From Trichodesmium erythraeum IMS101 (lineage in GTDB: Bacteria > Cyanobacteriota > Cyanobacteriia > Cyanobacteriales > Microcoleaceae): a stretch of 32,000 nt of DNA. The number at the start of each line of letters is the position of its first letter. Position 1 is the stretch's first letter. The stretch covers positions 390,001 to 422,000 of the forward strand of contig NC_008312.1 in NCBI RefSeq assembly GCF_000014265.1. The letters are read 5' to 3'. Position numbers and translations under genes: made by a program. The notes beneath the pieces were generated by a model. That model saw only the letters and a list, made by a program, of their open reading frames with translations, searched no databases and had not been told where the DNA came from. Below, in pieces: positions 6,735 to 32,000 of the stretch.

Positions 6735-7410
6735 TGGAGTAGCGATCGCTAATTTACTAAATGCCATACCAATTCAATTATGTCATAACCTGGACTATAT
6801 TTAGACAAATACTCTAAATAGATATTTAGAATTTATGTTTCAATTTTATTAATATATTCTGCTTTCAATTTAAAATAATCTAGAGCTAAAATAATTACTA
6901 TTTTGGCTCCTTTTTGGCAATTTACTCTCTTTTATCATCAGCTTTTATCCATTCATTTATTATCTCTTAATTAAATATTTTTAACACTTCATCAAAACTT
7001 TTGCTATTGCTGATTTTCAAAAAATCTATGAATCTTTAATAATTTTAAACATCGTCTCCAAACATTGCATTTACTCTCGGTTTTATTCAATCTATTCTTA
7101 CTTTTTTCCTTAGCCCTTGATTATACCAATAAACAATTTTTGATTACTCTTAAATCCAATCCACTTTCGTCTTAAAATCATACCGAAAAACTTTTTTTAT
7201 TAGTATTTTTTTATTTTTAAATACTCTTCTATATTTCTTTAAATTTTTTATTTTTTCAAGATTATTATAGAACTCCCAGCTATATTTTCTCCTTATGTAA
7301 ACGTACCTTTCTCTTTACTTACCCCATTTCCCTAATTATTGTGTTTAAAATAATCAGAGTCGGAAAATTTATTCAAACAATCTAATTTAGCCTTTTGTCC
7401 TAAAAAATGT
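6735..7410 (-). mobile_element. Degenerate IS630-family (Tc1/mariner-like DDE) transposase relic
   Basis: Minus-strand frames give KIVIILALDYFKLKAEYINKIET*ILNIYLEYLSKYSPGYDIIELVWHLVN. This fits the IS630 pattern xIxLILDNxxxHKxx...LxFLPxYSPxLNxIExVWxxLK. Upstream pieces are FFGMILRRKWIGFKSNQKLFIGIIKG and GQKAKLDCLNKFSDSDYF. There are many stops and frameshifts, and no ORF of 60 aa or more. The boundaries are approximate. Confidence 0.5.
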
Positions 7411-11386: not shown

Positions 11387-11554
11387 ATGGGAAAGACTAA
11401 GTCTAAATCTAACTTACCAACAAAAATATGTCCTGTATGTAACCGCCCTTTTAGCTGGCGAAAAAAATGGGCCAATTGTTGGGATGAAGTGAAATATTGT
11501 TCCGAAAGATGTCGGCGACATAAGTCATCTCCGTTATTAGCACCTCCTAATTAA
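11387..11554 (+). CDS. DUF2256-family small zinc-ribbon protein (55 aa)
   Basis: This ORF is too short for the supplied track. My translation is MGKTKSKSNLPTKICPVCNRPFSWRKKWANCWDEVKYCSERCRRHKSSPLLAPPN*. The CPVC-x-RPF-x-WRKKW...V-x-YCS-x-x-CR signature is the conserved DUF2256 core. It is co-oriented with the downstream peptidase gene. Confidence 0.7.
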   Translation: MGKTKSKSNLPTKICPVCNRPFSWRKKWANCWDEVKYCSERCRRHKSSPLLAPPN

Positions 11555-12782: not shown

Positions 12783-13595
12783 TTAAGAAAGTATTTTAAT
12801 TTCAATCCAAACTCCTATTTTTTTAATATGAGGAATATATTCAATATTAAGCTTAGGAATACAACTTAAGCGATCGTCTTGAAGTACACCCGCACCATTT
12901 AATGTTAAAGCATCAAGACAAGCTCCTGCTAAATTATCTAAATCAGAATTAGTGCGATGTTTCCCACAAAAACTAATAGAAATAGCTGCTCTTTGAATTG
13001 GCAAACTTACCTCTAAATTAAGTTTAGAAACTTGACGGTAGATTTCTACTTCTGCCTGATTTCTCCAGATACGATACCGAGATGGTAAATAAGTACCATT
13101 AGCAGTAACTCGTGGACGTGCTTTAGGAACTATTTTCCCAGGAATATACAAATTAATTATTGTAGAACTTTTATATTCTTCAGACTTGGGAGGACAAGTG
13201 GTAAAATCATTAGTATTATCCAATGACGGAATATTTTTGTTAACTTCCTTCCCTAGCTTCTCTAGTAAATTATCTTTTGATTTAGAGGTAAAAAATTGCA
13301 TTTGGGATTTATCCTCAATAGCAGATAAATCAACTTTTCTGTAAGTATCTAATTGTCTCCGGAAACTAGGCCAACTTTTAGCTATTTGTAAATAAGTTTC
13401 TGTACAGTTTTCCGATAAATGGCAATTATTTTGTAGCCACGATTGCCATTCAGTAGGAGAAAATAAAGATTTAGTTTCTAATAATAATTGACCTAAAGAA
13501 TAAGCATAAGCTATAGAATTCTTATGGTAATCTTGGCATTTTTGATGTTTAAAATTAATATCTTCTATTAAGTATTGCCAGTTAATTAATACCAT
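12783..13595 (-). CDS. RusA-family crossover junction endodeoxyribonuclease fused to a DUF3102-like N-terminal domain
   Basis: 270-aa ORF. The C-terminal ~120 aa (PKARPRVTANGTYLPSRYRIWRNQAEVEI...SDLDNLAGACLDALTLNGAGVLQDDRLS) carries the RusA signature, including the DxDN and DD acidic residues. The N-terminal segment (AYAYSLGQLLLETKSLFSPTEWQSWLQNNCHLSENCTETYLQIAKSWP) fits the phage/plasmid DUF3102 pattern G-x-x-L...W-x-x-W-L...S-x-x-T-A-x-x-Y. Confidence 0.75.
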   Translation of the reverse strand: MVLINWQYLIEDINFKHQKCQDYHKNSIAYAYSLGQLLLETKSLFSPTEWQSWLQNNCHLSENCTETYLQIAKSWPSFRRQLDTYRKVDLSAIEDKSQMQFFTSKSKDNLLEKLGKEVNKNIPSLDNTNDFTTCPPKSEEYKSSTIINLYIPGKIVPKARPRVTANGTYLPSRYRIWRNQAEVEIYRQVSKLNLEVSLPIQRAAISISFCGKHRTNSDLDNLAGACLDALTLNGAGVLQDDRLSCIPKLNIEYIPHIKKIGVWIEIKILS

Positions 13596-14160
13596 TTTTG
13601 TATAAAATAAGTAAATATAAAAACGGAGAGAAATAATAAAAATATGGGTACAGAAAGTAAGTATTAGGGAAAAAGAGATACTCTGTTGAAATATAAAAAC
13701 ATTTTTGTTATAATTAAATAATCAGATACTATATAAATTATCAATAGGATATTATAGCATTTTTTATTATTCCAAAAAAACAGATATTTTTACTTAAAAT
13801 TACTGATGAGTCAGCCATTTTTTTTGATTAACATGATTAGAAATATTTAAAATACAAATTAAGGTAAAATTTTAATAGTAAATTATATATAACTTATTTC
13901 ATAATAAATAATGTATTAGAATATATTTATAGCTACAAAAAAAGAACAAAAATAATTCTTGGTATTACAGATAAAAAACTAAAAAAATTAATATAAAATG
14001 CTCAAAAATTTGAATAAAAAAAGACAGGTGAAAGCCAGTCAATAAAAAAGATTAATCAAGGTAAAAAGAGGTCAAAAACAGCTTAAAAGTCGAGGAATAA
14101 ATCACCCTAACTATATGCTATATAAGTCAAATTCCTACATTTACTCATACTAGAAATATC

Positions 14161-18737: not shown

Positions 18738-19186
18738 CTTTATCACCTCCTTAACAAATTGACATTACATAAATGCAGGATAATTTTAATAGTTTTATAG
18801 AATGGACATCTTGCCTGCTAATTATATTTTCAGACGGGTATAGTCATGGACAAAGTCCTCAAGACATTTTTGCACCTCTCAAGTTTAGTCCGTGCTGGCA
18901 ATTTAACTCTTGATATTATGTCCGCTCATAAGATTAAGTAACAATTAGAAAAAAAGCTTTTGATTTTCTTCCACCAAAGTGTAAGTATTTAAAGAGGTAT
19001 AATACACCATTGGATTGGGCAAATGATGTACAAAGCGTGAATGGTAAAATCATACTAGTGAGAATATCTAGTCCGTAGGTGTATACCTCACGGGCAGCGG
19101 AAGTGCCATATTACTTCTGACATCTGACTTTAGCAAAAGGGATGCTTACTCCACTTATATTCACCCTACCTCTGAGCAATACCCAA

Positions 19187-19222
19187 ATCAAAAACCCTAG
19201 CAGATTTAGCTATCTGCCAGGG
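19187..19222 (-). terminator. Terminator-like hairpin inside the rplA-rplJ spacer
   Basis: On the minus strand, CCCTGGCAGAT-AGCTAA-ATCTGCTAGGG forms an 11-bp stem with one mismatch (19195-19222). TTTTTGAT follows directly at 19187-19194. It lies ~610 nt downstream of the rplA stop and ~450 nt upstream of the rplJ start. Confidence 0.5.
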
Positions 19223-19829
19223 CTAAGAATTATCAAATCCAAATCAAGCAATTAAATTAGGGTCTTTAATAAAACTCCCTATTGTTATCTTTGAATAATT
19301 AATTCTTGAACCTCGGCAGAAAATTAAGCTATTAGCACCTGCTGTCTTTAGCTCTTGAATTTGAAATTTTTTGGAAAATTTTTCAGCTTTTTTATATTGA
19401 CATCAAACTGACTTATACAGTTAACTAAATTGTTGACATCCTCCCCGGCTTGTTAGAAAAGGGAAAAAACCGATTCTTAGATCTAATTTAGGTTCATGTC
19501 TAATAGACTGTTGCAGCTACCCTCAAAAGAGGTAGGTTAGTCTGGTCGATCCGTCCATTTAAAGTCTCGGAATGCCCAAGCGCAACTTACCAAAAATTCT
19601 TGTGGGTCTTTATTTGTCTATTCAGATTTGAACTGCTCCGAAACCTGAAAGCTTCCCAAGTTATGCTCTCAACTGAAGGAGTTTCGACCTAATCTTCTTT
19701 TCTACAGAATTTATGAAACAAGGCATGTAAATAACTCATCTTATTATAACATGCAAAGCCAACCAATAGATGGGCGAGACTTTCAACTTAAATTTTTCGG
19801 CAATTACTGAGTGCTGATAGCTTTTCAAA

Positions 19830-22295: not shown

Positions 22296-22368
22296 CGCGC
22301 CCTGGAGGACTCGAACCCCCGACATCAGGTTTTGGAGACCTGCGTTCTACCAACTGAACTAAGAGCGC
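22296..22368 (-). tRNA. trnW: tRNA-Trp (anticodon CCA), 73 nt, 3' CCA not encoded
   Basis: The minus-strand sequence is GCGCTCTTAGTTCAGTTGGTAGAACGCAGGTCTCCAAAACCTGATGTCGGGGGTTCGAGTCCTCCAGGGCGCG. It folds by hand into a cloverleaf. The acceptor stem pairs GCGCTCT with AGGGCGC. The D arm is GTTC/GAAC. The anticodon arm is CAGGT-CTCCAAA-ACCTG. The T arm is GGGGG-TTCGAGT-CCTCC. Confidence 0.9.
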
Positions 22369-25936: not shown

Positions 25937-27622
<1,686 letters not shown>

Positions 27623-27848: not shown

Positions 27849-30800
27849 ATGGCTGTTAAACTGTTGGACGATTTTTCGAAATCTCTCGGGTTGGAAACTG
27901 TTAACGGTGGGGCTAACCTTGTTAAGGCGCTTTTTAAATTAGCTGAGACACTAGAAAAATATAAGGATACTCAGGAATTAAAGTCTGCTATTGAAAAGAT
28001 TAATATTGAATCTCTGTTGGATGCACTAAATTCTCCATTGGGAAGTGTTGTTAGAGATAGTGTACCTTTCTTGCCTATTGCAACTGGAATTATTTCTTAT
28101 ATTGTTAAACAAAGTCGTCAGGAGCCTACTTTGGAAGATGAGGTGCAGTTGTTGGTTCAGGTGGCTTTTTTAGAAAGTTTTCGACAATTTTTTGTAGAGC
28201 ATCCAGAAATTAAGGAGCAGTTCACAGACACTGAGGCTTCGGAGGATGTAAAAAAACAGATTAAGAAGTTGGGTAAAGATGGTTTTAATCGCCAAGATGC
28301 TAAGGATACTTTGATTTGTTTTTATGATTCACCGTTGAGAGAAAAGTTTGATAATGTTGTATTGGCACGCTTAAAAGAGTCTGGTTTGGATGAAAAAACG
28401 GCGAAAATAGTGACTGAAAGAATTTCTCGCAGTACCCATCGTTATATGAAAGAAGCGGTATCAGAGGTGAAGGATGATGCTAAAAAATTAGCGGGAATTT
28501 ATGGGTATGGCTGGCAGCAAGATTTGGAGGTTTATGGGAGTGTTGATGGGTATTTGAAAAATAAAGTTGCTCGTCTGCCAGAGGAAAAAGTATTTGATGA
28601 AAGTTTCTCTTTTCAGGATATTTATGTACCACTTGAGGTCGAGTCTGTGTCCGATGGAGAGGTTGATAAAAATGCTGAATCTCAGAATATTGAGAAGTGG
28701 GCAAAAACAATTTTGTTACCTCAACACTTTGATGAAAATTTTGATGAAAATTCGCGGAAAAATAATGAGGAAAAAGATAAAAAAGATAAACAGGTTTTAT
28801 TTATTCAAGGGGGGCCTGGAAGAGGAAAAAGTGTATTTTGCCGGATGTTTGCTGACTGGGTGCGGCGGGAACTACATCCTATCTATACCCCTATTTTGAT
28901 CCGGTTGCGAGATGTGAAAAATTTTGCAGCAAATATTGATCAGACTCTGGCTGATGCTGTGAATTACGATTTTGTGAAAATTGATGGGGGCTGGTTGACA
29001 GACCGGAATACTCGGTTTCTGTTTTTGCTGGATGGGTTTGATGAGTTGTTGTTGGAGCGGGGGGCAAGCAGTGAGTTGAAGGTGTTTTTAGATCAGGTAG
29101 CACAGTTTCAGAAACAGGCAGCGGAAAATAAGGAGCGCGGTCATCGGGTTTTGATCACGGGTAGACCTTTGGCGCTTTATGGTATTGAAAGGTTGATGCC
29201 TCCTAATTTGGAGCGGGTGAGTATTTTGCCGATGGATGATGATATCCAGGGACAGTGGTTTGAGAAGTGGCGGACGGTGGTGGGGGATGAGGAAACAGAA
29301 AAGTTTGGGGAGTTTTTACGGAGTGAACAATGTCCGGAGCAGGTTAACGAGTTGGCGCGGGAACCTCTTTTGTTGTATTTGCTGGCTTCAATGCACAGGG
29401 GTGGGAAGTTAAAGGTAGAGATGTTTGCTAATACTGATGTTGGTGAGACAAAGGTTTTAATTTATGAGCAGGCGTTGGAGTGGGTACTGGAAAAACAGCG
29501 GGTAGAAGAGGGTAAAAATATTAATCTTGAAATTACGAAGTTGGAGCCAGAAGATCTGGAGGTTTTATTGACAGAGGCGGGGTTGTGTGTGGTGCAGTCT
29601 GGTGGGGAATATGCTGCTATAGAAATGATCGAGGAGCGGCTGGTGAAAAAGGGAGATAAGGAGTTAAAGCGGTTAATTGAAAATGCTAGGGAAGATAAGC
29701 GGGAGGATGGGTTGAAAAATGCTTTGGCTGCTTTTTATTTGAAGTCGGCAACGGGGGCAGAAAATTCGGTGGAGTTTTTTCATAAGAGTTTTGGTGAGTT
29801 TCTCTGTGCAAAACGGATGGCAGAAAGTCTGGAATATTTTACGCAGAAAACTAAGAAAGGACGCAAGTTTAGTTACTCTGTTTCTGATGAGGAGTTGGTA
29901 TGGCAGGTTTACGATCTGTTTGGTTATGGGGGTTTAACCGTGGAAGTTGTGGAGTATTTGATGGCTTTGTTGGTGAAAAGTGAAGCAAAGCTGGTGGTTT
30001 TGTTTGAGCGCTTACATGAGTTTTATCTAGACTGGTGTGATGGGAAGTTTATTGAGGCGACGGAGGAAACTTTACCTCAGAAAAAGGCGAGGGAGTTGCA
30101 GCAGTGGCGTATTAAGTCTGGGCAACGCCAAGTGGATATTTATACTGGGTTGAATGTGATTATTTTGTTGTTTGAGCTGGATCGTTATGGGCAGTCTCAG
30201 GAGGAGTTGCGGGAGCAGTTGCGTTTTTATCCTTGCGGTCAACATGGTAGTGAAAATTTTGAGGCTCTAAAACTGTTAACAATTATTGGCTATAGTCAAT
30301 GTTTAGGAGTTGGTGCGTTTTGGGAAACAGTAGGTCAGTTTCTAAGTGGTGCCGACCTCAGATATGCCGACCTCAGTGGTGCCTACCTCATAGTTGCCAA
30401 CCTCAGATATGCCGACCTCAGTGGTGCCTACCTCATAAGTGCCGACCTCAGTGGTGCCTACCTCATAGGTGCCAACCTCATAGGTGCCGACCTCAGTCGT
30501 GCCGACCTCAGATATGCCGACCTCAGTGGTGCTAACCTCAGTGATGCCAAACTCAGTGGTGCTAACCTCAGTGATGCCAAACTCAGTGGTGCCGGCCTCA
30601 GTGGTGCCGACCTCAGATATGCCGACCTCAGTGGTGCTGACCTCAGTCGTGCCAAACTCAGTGATGCCGGCCTCAGTGGTGCCAACCTCAGTGTTGCCGG
30701 CCTCAGTGGTGCCGACCTCAGATATGCCGACCTCAGTGGTGCCGACCTCAGATATGCCGACCTCAGTGGTGCTGACCTCAGTGATGCCAACCTTAGTAAT

Positions 30801-30950
30801 GTCAGATGGAATAGTCAAACCAAGTGGTCAAATACTATTGGTTTACATGAAGCAATAGAAGTTCCAGAAGACTTACAACAAGATCCAGAATTTGCCGCAG
30901 CAGTTGCTGAGTCGGAAGCAGCAAGTCAAGAACAACAGTACATTTTTTGA
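27849..30950 (+). CDS. STAND-class NACHT NTPase with uncharacterised helical N-terminal module and C-terminal pentapeptide-repeat domain
   Basis: The Walker A motif is GGPGRGKS (~28808-28831). The Walker B motif is [11 protein letters not shown] (~29014-29046), followed by VLITGRP. A helical region of about 350 aa comes next. Then 30 consecutive A(D/N/K/G/Y)LXX pentapeptides span 30351-30800. I placed the start at ATG 27849 (MAVKLLDD). The track ORF begins at TTG 27831. Confidence 0.85.
30351..30800 (+). repeat. Intragenic 15-nt (pentapeptide) repeat tract with 30-nt and 105-nt higher-order units
   Basis: There are 30 uninterrupted 15-nt units. The 30-31-nt block GCC(G/A)ACCTCAGATATGCCGACCTCAGTGGTGC recurs at 30351, 30396, 30501, 30606, 30711 and 30741. 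Four of these starts are spaced exactly 105 nt apart. The tract is stop-free in several frames on both strands, which produces four spurious track ORFs. Confidence 0.95.
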
Positions 30951-31140
30951 TAGTGAAAGACTCCTTCATTCATTCTGGATCTAAACTTGAAGTTTGAGAG
31001 ATAGTCAGTTTGTAGGTTGGTTTGACCCCAGGAAACCCAACTAAAATTTGGGGGTGTTGGGTTTCCCCAGCTCAACCTAGGGAACAGGAAAAAAAACTGG
31101 AAAATTCTGAGTGATAACAACATCCGATGAACAAAAAACT

Positions 31141-32000
31141 GGTGTTGGGTTGTGCTGGGTTTCGCCGGCTTAAGCTTACCTACGGGAGTGGGAGCTTTCA
31201 GTAAAGAGCTGGGAAGTTATGAGCGATCGCTACTTGGGAAAATTTTACCCCCAAATATATCTGTTGGGTTGTGTTGGGTTGGGCGGGCTTAAGCTTACCT
31301 ACGGGAGGGGGAGCTTTCAGTAAAGAGCTGGGAAGTTATGAGCGATCGCTACTTGGGAAAATTTTACCCCCAAATATATCTGTTGGGTTGTGTTGGGTTG
31401 GGCGGGCTCAAGCTTACCTACGGGAGGGGGAGCTTTCAGTAAAGAGCTGGGAAGTTATGAGCGATCGCTACTTGGGAAAATTTTACCCCCAAATATATCT
31501 GTTGGCTTGTGTTGGGTTGGGCGGGCTTAAGCTTACCTACGGGAGGGGGAGCTTTCAGTAAAGAGTTGGGAAGTTATGAGCGATCGCTACTTGGGAAAAT
31601 TTTACCCCCAAATATATCTGTTGGGTTGTGTTGGGTTTCGCCGGCTTAAGCTTACCTACGGGAGGGGGAGCTTTCAGTAAAGAGCTGGGAAGTTATGAGC
31701 GATCGCTACTTGGGAAAATTTTACCCCCAAATATATCTGTTGGGTTGTGTTGGGTTTCGCCGGCTTAAGCTTACCTACGGGAGGGGGAGCTTTCAGTAAA
31801 AAGCTGGGAAGTTATGAGCGATCGCTACTTGGGAAAATTTTACCCCCAAATATATCTGTTGGGTTGTGTTGGGTTTCGCCGGCTTAAGCTTACCTACGGG
31901 AGGGGGAGCTTTCAGTAAAAAGCTGGGAAGTTATGAGCGATCGCTACTTGGGAAAATTTTACCCCCAAATATATCTGTTGGCTTGTGTTGGGTTGGGCGG
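31141..32000. repeat. Exact 119-bp tandem repeat array, 7 full units plus a partial one, truncated by the window end
   Basis: The unit-start motif GTTGG(G/C)TTGTG occurs at 31144, 31263, 31382, 31501, 31620, 31739, 31858 and 31977, a spacing of 119 every time. The units are near-identical and each contains the HIP1 site GCGATCGC. A diverged partial copy lies at ~31040-31085. Confidence 0.95.

What the first reader, a model, noticed from the sequence alone, without database searches (positions are those of the whole stretch)
31141..32000. Highly homogeneous 119-bp tandem array (at least 7 units, open-ended) with two unit variants and a promoter-like motif in every unit
Seen in sequence: the unit start recurs at exactly 119-bp spacing (31144 ... 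31977) with only a few substitutions per unit. Each unit carries five elements. One is GTTGGGTTGTGTTGGGTT (an internal direct repeat). One is the nested palindromes GCTTAAGC/AAGCTT. One is the G-run GGGAGGGGGAG. One is a short hairpin-capable AGCTTT-CAGT(AA)-AAAG(A)GCT. One is the HIP1 palindrome AGCGATCGCT. Each unit also has TTGGGA-N16-TATATC (e.g. 31234-31261), a weak 4/6 + 4/6 match to a sigma70 -35/-10 pair. That would start transcripts at the next unit's GTTGGG. Two variants differ by a linked three-substitution block (GGGCGG versus TCGCCG after GTGTTGGGTT). They occur in runs B-A-A-A-B-B-B-A, which suggests block duplication or gene conversion. 119 is not divisible by 3, and TAA (in CAGTAAAG) closes one frame per unit, so the array does not encode a repeat protein. 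It is not CRISPR-like because there are no unique spacers. Inference: it could be a tandem array of small-RNA genes, a protein or nucleoid binding platform, or a satellite-like expansion. It begins ~190 bp downstream of the NACHT gene, and a diverged seed copy at ~31040-31085 lies between them. Whether the two are functionally linked is unknown.
Basis: partly seen in the sequence, partly recalled or inferred. Interest (0 to 1): 0.7.

Follow-up and report, generated by a model that had tools for sequence, protein, structure and literature searches.

The report
Trichodesmium 119-bp intergenic minisatellite array
A real, fast-changing tandem array of 119-bp units lies between a NACHT gene and a transporter gene in the marine cyanobacterium Trichodesmium erythraeum, and it looks like a locally amplified stretch of non-coding DNA rather than a set of genes, though whether it is transcribed has not been tested.

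Summary
From 31143 to the window end there are 7.2 head-to-tail copies of a 119-bp unit, 97% alike, with the described sub-motifs and the B-A-A-A-B-B-B-A variant order.

The window is Trichodesmium erythraeum IMS101. Searching the spurious array ORF against protein databases recovered the same array in other assemblies. It always lies between the NACHT-pentapeptide gene and an MFS transporter gene:
- 11.8 units in T. erythraeum MAG_R01.
- At least 5 units, with a co-amplified MITE, in other Trichodesmium species.
- About 1 unit in MAG_R02 and none in MAG_R04.

Units are about 96% identical within T. erythraeum but only 80-87% identical between species. That is no better conserved than synonymous sites or flanking intergenic DNA, so the units evolve in concert without visible constraint.

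The first ~40 nt of the unit, the hairpin after the NACHT gene and the 3' flank all belong to a small dispersed palindrome family (GTTGGGTTTC...AACCTAC). This family probably supplied the homology for the first duplication.

Neither strand has a consensus promoter, a terminator or an Rfam match, and neither folds better than shuffled sequence. One 6-bp hairpin is kept, with a single covarying pair. The per-unit 34-aa ORF and the G-quadruplex motif are lineage-specific.

Best reading: a locus-specific minisatellite. An sRNA array is not excluded, because the published dRNA-seq omitted RNAs under 300 nt.

The parts
31143..32000 (+). Tandem array of 119-bp units, 7.2 copies, cut off by the window end. 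Units start at 31143 (B, edge type), 31262 (A), 31381 (A), 31500 (A), 31619 (B), 31738 (B), 31857 (B) and 31976 (A, partial).
   Evidence: TRF period 119, 97% matches, score 1580. Exact 119-bp spacing. nhmmer finds 7 full units and no other copy in the window.
31193..31210 (+). Small hairpin AGCTTT-CAGTAA-AGAGCT, shown here for unit 1 and repeated every 119 bp. It is the only structure kept across species. It holds U.G pairs, so it pairs only as plus-strand RNA.
   Evidence: RNAalifold on 32 distinct units. 96.4% of cells are paired, against 31-65% when the 3' partners are slid. Pair 55-70 is GC 17, GU 7, AU 6, AC 2, and 14 of 500 shuffles reach the observed covariation. The minus-strand consensus fold is only -2.6 kcal/mol.
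31223..31230 (.). HIP1 octamer GCGATCGC, shown here for unit 1 and repeated every 119 bp. It is invariant in all 32 distinct units from all species.
   Evidence: Sequence. Invariant columns 83-90 of alignment A1.
31153..31182 (+). 5' part of the unit, shown for unit 1, that belongs to the dispersed palindrome family GTTGGGTTTC-N8-14-AACCTAC. In the unit the right arm has decayed to ACCTAC.
   Evidence: Pattern GTTGGGTN{8,25}ACCTA gives 8 hits in the window against 0.06 expected, all at this locus. Family alignment A2. Other family members lie in the cox intergenic region and upstream of an SDR gene in related loci.
31012..31085 (.). Hairpin 62 bp after the NACHT stop codon, made of two inverted members of the same palindrome family (31012-31041 on the minus strand, 31056-31085 on the plus strand).
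   Evidence: Inverted repeat I4, 20 nt arms, 80% complementary. Fold -33.6 kcal/mol on the minus strand, z = -2.4. 98% conserved in another species' contig, L079.
27849..30950 (+). Upstream neighbour: NNH3-NACHT-pentapeptide repeat protein, 1033 aa. The array follows it in T. erythraeum and in at least one other Trichodesmium species.
   Evidence: ORF. Pfam NNH3, NACHT and Pentapeptide hits on the identical protein. L079 shows the same gene end followed by hairpin and array. No PADLOC hit.
31271..31561 (+). Spurious 96-aa ORF running through 2.4 units. It is annotated in RefSeq as hypothetical protein WP_044136273.1. It was useful as a handle to find homologous arrays.
   Evidence: the ORF listing. 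Exact match to WP_044136273.1 on a 7,750,108-bp contig. Its only database relatives are ORFs called in the same array of other assemblies.

Best explanation
This is a locus-specific minisatellite: a VNTR-like tandem array in the NACHT-MFS intergenic spacer of Trichodesmium.

Proposed origin and maintenance (inferred):
1. A ~119-bp stretch of the spacer was bracketed by two directly oriented left ends of a small palindromic repeat (TATATCTGTTGGGTT...).
2. Slipped-strand mispairing or unequal homologous recombination between these short repeats made the first duplication.
3. Unequal crossing-over and gene conversion between units have since expanded, contracted and homogenised the array.

The units carry no gene of their own: no promoter, no terminator and no conserved ORF. 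The array is probably close to selectively neutral. At most it is transcribed passively, as read-through from the NACHT gene or from upstream of the MFS gene.

Shown: the array structure, its fixed locus, concerted evolution, turnover between strains, hitch-hiking of a MITE, and the kinship of the unit's 5' end with a dispersed palindrome family. Inferred: the recombination mechanism and near-neutrality.
For: 1. Locus-specific.
- Every homologous array with readable context lies between the NACHT gene and the MFS gene.
- There are no matches in plasmids, phages or JGI metagenomes.

2. Concerted evolution without constraint.
- Units are 96% identical within T. erythraeum and 80-87% identical to units of other species.
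- Between the same species, MFS third codon positions are 89% identical and the 3' intergenic flank is 80% identical.

3. Fast turnover.
- IMS101 and MAG_R01 share 191 of 192 bases in the 5' flank, yet differ in unit order and variants.
- Copy number is at least 7.2 in IMS101 and 11.8 in MAG_R01.
- Across species the states are 0 units (MAG_R04), about 1.1 units (MAG_R02), at least 5, and about 12.

4. Edge effect. The first and last units are the most diverged and resemble the other species.

5. Hitch-hiking. A ~95-bp MITE inserted at a unit boundary has itself been amplified with the unit in L077, L079 and L081, giving a higher-order repeat.

6. Seeding homology.
- In MAG_R02 the single unit is bounded by the 15-bp direct repeat TATATCTGTTGGGTT.
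- The same left end occurs in an independent family member in the cox spacer.
- The 3' flank is itself a family member.

7. No gene signals.
- No promoter-like or terminator-like site on either strand in the window or in the complete MAG_R01 array.
- No Rfam match at E up to 10.
- Unit folding z-scores run from -0.9 to +0.9.
- The consensus fold is weak on the plus strand and nil on the minus strand.
Against: - The array has persisted at one locus in several species.
- One small hairpin keeps pairing in 96% of cells, with a GC/GU/AU series at one pair. This is compatible with selection on a plus-strand RNA.
- At about 48% GC with GC skew +0.3, the unit is unlike the surrounding 26-34% GC spacer DNA.
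- T. erythraeum is known to transcribe another tandem array at very high level, and its published dRNA-seq omitted RNAs under 300 nt (PMC4143802). Absence of consensus promoters is therefore weak evidence against transcription.
- Copy numbers and unit orders from short-read MAGs may be collapsed or chimeric.
- The complete IMS101 chromosome could not be searched for dispersed copies.
Confidence: 0.6

Rival explanations
1. The array is a set of small-RNA genes. Each unit, or each junction, would be transcribed from its own non-consensus promoter into a G-rich ~100-nt RNA carrying the conserved hairpin. This would be comparable to the NsiR1 array of Nostoc or to the abundantly expressed 7-repeat ncRNA array of IMS101.
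For: - Central copies are near-identical and edge copies diverged, as in NsiR1.
- The hairpin keeps pairing with U.G pairs on the plus strand only, and has one covarying pair.
- T. erythraeum has the highest share of non-coding transcription start sites known, and a transcribed tandem array (PMC4143802).
- The published libraries omitted RNAs under 300 nt.
- The array is retained in several species.
Against: - No promoter-like or terminator-like site on either strand.
- TATATC lacks the critical final T, and the -35-like TTGGGA is replaced by CCGGTG in other species.
- No DIF1 motif (TCCGGA) in the T. erythraeum units (consensus).
- No Rfam match.
- Folding is no better than shuffled sequence.
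- The unit is no more conserved than synonymous sites.
- MITE insertions in units are tolerated and amplified.
Confidence: 0.17
2. The array is a cis-acting DNA or RNA platform. Reiterated sites would bind a protein or form structure that tunes expression of the downstream MFS-sulfotransferase genes or the stability of the NACHT mRNA. Candidate sites are the GTTGGGTT palindrome-family motif, HIP1, the G-tracts and G-quadruplex motif, and the SD-like GGAGG. Copy number would act as a dial.
For: - Eight GGG tracts per unit, and a canonical G-quadruplex motif in A-type units.
- HIP1 is invariant in all units.
- The family motif recurs in the hairpin after the NACHT gene, upstream of an SDR gene and in the cox spacer.
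- The array sits directly upstream of the AT-rich region conserved in front of the MFS gene.
Against: - The G-quadruplex motif and the GGGAGGGGGAG run are T. erythraeum-specific and absent from sister-species units.
- The palindromes GCTTAAGC and TTGGGAAAATTTTACCCCCAA are not conserved.
- MAG_R04 has the MFS gene with no unit at all, and MAG_R02 has about one.
- No binding protein is known.
Confidence: 0.12
3. The array is a set of micro-ORFs. Each junction would encode a 34-aa peptide, MSDRYLGKFYPQIYLLGCVGLGGLKLTYGRGSFQ.
For: In T. erythraeum units, an ATG at GTTATGAGC opens a 34-codon frame that closes at the CAGTAA of the next unit (read). RefSeq annotates ORFs in the array.
Against: - In sister species the frame stops after 11 codons (ACACCTAA), or the ATG is lost (TT-TGAGC). 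Two MAG_R01 units have ATC instead of ATG.
- There is no properly spaced ribosome-binding site.
- 119 is not a multiple of 3.
- The only database relatives are ORFs called in the same array.
Confidence: 0.02
4. The array is an assembly artefact.
For: Repeats of this kind break short-read assemblies. GCA_018457135.1 has a 100-N gap here, and several contigs end in the array.
Against: The array is present in the finished IMS101 chromosome and in at least 7 independent assemblies with consistent flanks.
Confidence: 0.01

Closest known systems
Bacterial intergenic minisatellites / VNTR loci (for example mycobacterial MIRU-type loci; from general knowledge, not tested here)
   Same: Head-to-tail units of tens to ~100 bp in an intergenic spacer at a fixed locus. 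Copy number differs between strains. Units are homogenised within a lineage, and no gene of their own is evident.
   Different: The unit is comparatively long (119 bp), GC-rich in an AT-rich genome, and contains HIP1 and a decayed member of a dispersed palindrome family. In sister species it forms a higher-order repeat that includes a MITE.
NsiR1 tandem sRNA array upstream of hetF in Nostoc/Anabaena (PMC9045159, PMC6596454)
   Same: About 12 tandem direct repeats in a cyanobacterial intergenic region, with identical central copies and diverged peripheral copies.
   Different: NsiR1 units each have a DIF1-type promoter and give a ~60-nt sRNA. Here there is no DIF1 motif, no promoter or terminator consensus, no Rfam hit and no expression data.
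The 7 x 736-973-bp tandem repeat array at 103-110 kb of T. erythraeum IMS101, source of its most abundant ncRNAs (PMC4143802)
   Same: Same organism. A tandem array of non-coding units over 96% identical, with a diverged edge repeat. The authors suggest it arose by duplication events involving mobile elements.
   Different: That unit is about 8 times longer, has no sequence relation to this one, and has a mapped transcription start site and a ~260-nt transcript in each repeat. No such evidence exists for the 119-bp array.
REP/BIME-like and small dispersed palindromic repeats of bacterial intergenic regions
   Same: The motif GTTGGGTTTC-N8-14-CAACCCAACCTAC forms short hairpins, recurs in intergenic DNA of Trichodesmium and Okeania, and sits just after genes (the NACHT gene and coxA).
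   Different: Only the first ~40 nt of the unit resemble this family. The remaining ~80 nt and the tandem organisation are unique to this locus.
Eukaryotic satellite DNA with higher-order repeats (works-like comparison only)
   Same: Concerted evolution, homogenised interior with diverged edges, and higher-order repeats that include an inserted mobile element.
   Different: This is a bacterial chromosome, the array is about 1-1.5 kb, and there is no known structural role.

Membership tests
Minisatellite / VNTR locus | Head-to-tail repeats of one unit at a single locus | tested here: met
   TRF period 119, 7.2 copies. 11.8 copies in MAG_R01. No other copy in the held Trichodesmium DNA.
Minisatellite / VNTR locus | Copy number and unit order vary between close relatives | tested here: met
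   At least 7.2 units in IMS101 and 11.8 in MAG_R01, with flanks 191/192 identical and different variant order. About 1 unit in MAG_R02 and 0 in MAG_R04. Caveat: these are short-read MAGs.
Minisatellite / VNTR locus | Concerted evolution: units more alike within a lineage than between lineages | tested here: met
   96% identity within T. erythraeum, 80-87% between species.
NsiR1-type tandem sRNA gene array | Own promoter in each repeat (DIF1 motif TCCGGA near -35 plus a -10 element) | tested here: not met
   No TCCGGA in the unit consensus. No promoter-like site on either strand. Some sister-species units have TCCGGT, but T. erythraeum units do not.
NsiR1-type tandem sRNA gene array | Terminator hairpin with U-tail in each repeat | tested here: not met
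   No terminator-like site on either strand. The conserved hairpin is followed by GGGAAG, not by a U run.
NsiR1-type tandem sRNA gene array | Discrete small transcript from each unit | not testable with these tools
   The supplement of PMC4143802 is not held, and its libraries omitted RNAs under 300 nt.
Any Rfam RNA family | Covariance-model match | tested here: not met
   No match at E up to 10 in 30900-32000 on either strand.
CRISPR array | Short repeats separated by unique spacers | tested here: not met
   Units abut with no unique sequence between them.
MITE / dispersed mobile repeat (whole unit) | Many dispersed copies with terminal inverted repeats and target-site duplications | tested here: not met
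   All unit copies are at this one locus. The unit has no terminal inverted repeats. The complete IMS101 genome could not be searched.
Small dispersed palindrome family GTTGGGTTTC...AACCTAC (5' 40 nt of the unit only) | Shared arms at conserved spacing, recurring in unrelated intergenic sites | tested here: inconclusive
   Alignment A2. The 8-mer GTTGGGTT occurs 2-6 times per 10-20 kb locus against 0.25-0.5 expected. Several Okeania hits are orthologous positions and not independent, and the unit has lost the right arm.
Tandem-repeat protein gene | Period divisible by 3 and an open frame through the units | tested here: not met
   119 = 3 x 39 + 2. The longest ORF is 96 aa. The per-unit 34-aa ORF is not conserved.

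The most novel reading that the evidence does not exclude
The array is a genus-specific battery of G-rich small RNAs, one per 119-bp unit, transcribed on the plus strand from non-consensus promoters and carrying the conserved AGCUUU/AGAGCU hairpin. Their dosage would be set by array copy number. They would act in trans, for example as a sponge for an RNA-binding protein or for anti-SD-like sequences, or on the neighbouring NACHT or MFS genes. They would have been missed by the published dRNA-seq because it excluded RNAs under 300 nt.
Probability: 0.15. Interest if true: 0.6.

Novelty: new member of a known kind. Interest (0 to 1): 0.3.

Why it matters
Trichodesmium is a globally important nitrogen fixer whose genome is about 40% non-coding, and how that non-coding DNA arises and persists is an open question.

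This locus gives a clean example across species of one way it grows. A small palindromic repeat seeds a tandem duplication. The duplication then expands, homogenises, captures a MITE, and differs in size between strains and species.

It is also a practical marker. It breaks short-read assemblies, it produces spurious 'hypothetical proteins' in RefSeq, and it could serve for VNTR strain typing.

If it proved to be transcribed unit by unit, it would be a second tandem ncRNA array in this organism and a new sRNA family.

Tried and rejected
- Rfam, at gathering thresholds and at E up to 10: no family matches the array.
- Consensus promoter and terminator scans, in the window and in the complete MAG_R01 array: none found.
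- Single-unit folding on both strands: z-scores from -0.9 to +0.9. The minus-strand consensus fold is essentially nil.
- Genome-contig scan with TACTTGGGAAAATTTTACCCCCAA: 0 hits. In hindsight this 24-mer is T. erythraeum-specific, and the IMS101 region appears to be absent or masked in that collection.
- Metagenome scan with GAGCTTTNAGNAAAGAGCTGGGAAG: 0 hits.
- Metagenome scan with GGGAAGTTATGAGCGATCGCT: 3 hits, all one orthologous coding gene (peptide ...AGSYERSL...). About 0.5 hits were expected by chance, so these were rejected as coincidence.
- Plasmid and phage BLASTN: no match.
- Look-ups of the IMS101 ORFs P0007 and P0008 to extend the window: not on record. The full IMS101 copy number therefore remains unknown.
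- Per-unit 34-aa ORF: rejected because it is not conserved.
- G-quadruplex as the conserved feature: rejected because it is present only in A-type T. erythraeum units.
- NtcA-like half site overlapping HIP1 (TGA-N8-TAC, then N22, then TATATC): read from the sequence only. It is imperfect and coincides with HIP1, so it was not pursued.
- Link to the NACHT gene as a defence system: no PADLOC hit, and the only evidence of association is adjacency.
- PMC4143802 Table 1 lists an ncRNA 'in between repeats' at 3647195r. It could not be tied to this locus, because the window's chromosome coordinates are unknown and the supplement is not held.

Full report
**Observation**

The sequence from 31143 to the window end is a perfect-register tandem array.
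- Tandem Repeats Finder reports period 119, 7.2 copies, 97% matches, no indels and score 1580.
- The repeat finder gives seven copies at exactly 119-bp spacing.
- Three sub-motifs each occur 7-8 times in the 32-kb window and nowhere else, against 0-0.01 expected.
The B-A-A-A-B-B-B-A order of the TCGCCG and GGGCGG variants is also as stated.
- The hexamer pair is only 8 of 12 and lacks the last T of the -10 hexamer. The consensus scan finds no promoter-like and no terminator-like site on either strand.

**Source**

The NACHT protein (27849-30947) is encoded identically on JAGGDU010000091.1 of GCA_018457135.1. In that assembly the array is interrupted by a 100-N gap and is followed, after 175 bp of AT-rich DNA, by an MFS transporter gene, a sulfotransferase, a GMC oxidoreductase and cox genes.

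The 96-aa ORF at 31271-31561 is exactly RefSeq WP_044136273.1 of Trichodesmium erythraeum, on a 7,750,108-bp contig. That is the size of the IMS101 chromosome (PMC4143802). The window is therefore T. erythraeum IMS101.

A scan of species-representative genomes for a unit 24-mer found nothing, and the best MFS relative there was only 83% identical. The IMS101 region therefore seems absent or masked in that collection.

**Finding homologues**

Gene callers place spurious ORFs in such arrays, so I searched the 96-aa ORF against the protein database. The seven hits led to contigs carrying the same array.
- L076 (Trichodesmium sp. MAG_R01, flanks 191/192 identical to the window) has a complete array of 11.8 units between the NACHT gene and the MFS gene.
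- L077, L078, L079, L080 and L081 come from other Trichodesmium genomes or metagenomes. They carry arrays of diverged units next to the MFS gene (L077, L078) or next to the NACHT 3' end and its hairpin (L079).
- In these species a ~95-bp MITE with terminal inverted repeats AGGACTTAC/GTAAGTCCT sits at a unit boundary. It has been amplified together with the units, giving a higher-order repeat.
- In MAG_R02 (L003) there is a single unit bounded by the 15-bp direct repeat TATATCTGTTGGGTT.
- In MAG_R04 (L002) there is no unit and only one copy of that motif.
- Okeania, the sister genus, has no unit upstream of its MFS gene.
- nhmmer with a unit profile finds no copy anywhere else in the held loci.
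- There are no matches in plasmids, phages or JGI metagenomes. The three metagenome hits to a 21-mer lie in one orthologous coding gene and are chance.

**Evolutionary mode**

Thirty-two distinct units were aligned as A1.
- Units are 96% identical within T. erythraeum (97% for interior units). The first and last units are lower, at 95% and 92%.
- Units of different species are 80-87% identical.
- Between T. erythraeum and the MAG_R02-like species, the MFS coding sequence is 91% identical, with third codon positions at 89%. The 3' intergenic flank is 80% identical.

The unit is thus no better conserved than presumably neutral sites, but it is homogenised within each lineage. This is concerted evolution. 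The edge units resemble the other species' units, for example GTGCTGGG in unit 1 and ...AAAATAGCACTAAAAAATATATC in the terminal copy. That is expected when unequal exchange homogenises only the interior. The three-substitution block that separates variants A and B is bridged by the TTTGGCGGGC form found in other species.

**Origin**

The first ~40 nt of the unit (TGTTGGGTTTCGCCGGCTTAAGCTTACCTAC) share both ends and their spacing with a small palindromic motif, T-GTTGGGTTTC-N8-14-(CAACCC)AACCTAC.

Two inverted copies of this motif form the 31012-31085 hairpin after the NACHT gene. That hairpin is 98% conserved in L079, and its minus-strand fold has z = -2.4. The 3' flank of the array is another copy. 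Further copies lie in the coxC-coxA spacer, one of them preceded by ATATATCTC just like the unit junction, and upstream of an SDR gene in Okeania and Trichodesmium loci (alignment A2).

The 8-mer GTTGGGTT occurs 2-6 times per 10-20-kb locus, against 0.25-0.5 expected. Several Okeania hits are orthologous, so the number of independent copies is smaller.

I infer that two directly oriented copies of this element about 119 bp apart supplied the homology for the first unequal exchange.

**Tests for function**
- Rfam: no match at E up to 10.
- Single units fold no better than shuffles on either strand.
- RNAalifold gives -13.2 kcal/mol on the plus strand and -2.6 on the minus strand.
- The one feature that stands out is the 6-bp hairpin AGCUUU-N6-AGAGCU. 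Pairing holds in 96.4% of cells, against 31-65% when partners are slid. Both interspecies differences in L003 fall in the loop. The within-array variants G>A and C>U turn U.G into U-A and G-C into G.U. One pair shows GC 17, GU 7, AU 6 and AC 2. Only 14 of 500 shuffles reach the observed covariation, a level the tool notes can arise without structure in related sequences. The U.G pairs make this compatible with plus-strand RNA only. It is suggestive, not conclusive.
- A 34-codon ORF per junction exists in T. erythraeum. It stops after 11 codons or lacks its ATG in other species.
- A canonical G-quadruplex motif exists only in A-type T. erythraeum units.
- The palindromes GCTTAAGC and TTGGGAAAATTTTACCCCCAA, and the -35-like TTGGGA, are not conserved.
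- The array is about 48% GC with GC skew +0.3, in a 26-34% GC spacer.

**Literature**

In IMS101 the most abundant primary transcripts come from a different tandem array, 7 repeats of 736-973 bp at 103-110 kb. The libraries of that study omitted RNAs under 300 nt, and its TSS table is not held here (PMC4143802).

NsiR1 of Nostoc is a ~60-nt sRNA encoded in 12 tandem copies. Each copy has a DIF1 promoter, the central copies are identical and the peripheral ones diverged (PMC9045159). The present array shares the array architecture but none of the gene signals. I found no paper describing this 119-bp array.

**Verdict**

The array is real and belongs to T. erythraeum IMS101. The best-supported explanation (confidence about 0.6) is a locus-specific minisatellite. 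It was seeded by a small dispersed palindrome and is maintained by unequal recombination and gene conversion, without genes of its own.

An sRNA array (about 0.17) and a cis-acting platform (about 0.12) remain possible, because transcription could not be examined.

It is a new member of a known kind. Interest is modest: it documents how Trichodesmium's large non-coding fraction grows, and it flags two spurious RefSeq proteins.

Noticed in passing
window 31271-31561, and the last unit plus 3' flank beyond the window (L001 ~13590-13780): RefSeq annotates two 'hypothetical proteins' of T. erythraeum (WP_044136273.1, 96 aa, and WP_196797190.1, 62 aa) that are frames running through the 119-bp array. 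MAG_R01 has five such ORF calls. They are almost certainly spurious.
   Followed up: yes
L077 163-262 and 507-604; L079 ~631-722 and ~973-1063; L081 ~52-142: A ~95-bp MITE-like element with terminal inverted repeats AGGACTTAC...GTAAGTCCT is inserted at the unit boundary (the AAATAT(AT)C site is duplicated). It is amplified together with the units in non-erythraeum Trichodesmium. The same ends occur elsewhere in L003, L005 and L010.
   Followed up: partly
window 31012-31085; L076 16640-16700; L077 6823-6851 and ~7005-7030; L004 15713; L005 10512 and 11422-11452; L006 5145 and 14073; L010 571-640 and 3939: A small palindromic repeat family, GTTGGGTTTC-N8-14-CAACCCAACCTAC, recurs in intergenic DNA of Trichodesmium and Okeania. 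It is often found just after a gene (the NACHT gene, coxA) or about 70 nt upstream of an SDR gene. Its nature is unknown: REP-like, terminator-like or mobile.
   Followed up: partly
L001 13815-13845, and the equivalent sites in L002, L003, L004, L005, L006, L010, L076, L077 and L078: The ~35 nt directly upstream of the MFS start codon (TCAAAATT.AA.TTAA.ATGAGA.AGTTTAAT) are conserved from Trichodesmium to Okeania, although the rest of the spacer is not. A second conserved block (ATTATTTATTAAGTGTAAT) lies further upstream. These may be a leader or promoter element of the MFS-sulfotransferase genes.
   Followed up: no
window 30345-30797: A 15-bp periodicity, 30 copies at 77% identity, inside the NACHT gene. 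This is the pentapeptide-repeat C-terminal domain (A[DN]LSG-type), not a non-coding repeat.
   Followed up: yes
window 27542-27597: GGCGGCATG x 6.2, perfect. It encodes the GGM repeat tail of GroEL (25937-27622) and also matches a canonical G-quadruplex motif on the plus strand.
   Followed up: partly
window 19180-19369 (-) and 22296-22368 (-): Rfam hits above gathering score: the ribosomal protein L10 leader upstream of rplJ, and a tRNA whose anticodon loop reads CCA (apparently tRNA-Trp) next to the secE-nusG-rplK-rplA cluster.
   Followed up: no
L076 7500-8400 (= window ~29340-30240, NACHT gene): The NACHT coding region has an unusually strong GC skew (+0.4 to +0.5) and about 45% GC in a ~34% GC genome. 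No PADLOC model matches the protein.
   Followed up: no
L054 comparison: MFS gene, L076 10753-11970 against L077 884-2101: Between the Trichodesmium species, first and third codon positions of the MFS gene are about equally diverged (89.4% and 88.9% identity). This suggests relaxed or diversifying selection on this transporter.
   Followed up: no
Genome-contig collection: Neither an exact unit 24-mer nor a >83% identical MFS gene was found among species-representative genomes, although the window is IMS101. The source region appears to be missing or masked there, so 'no hit' in that collection says nothing about dispersal within IMS101.
   Followed up: partly
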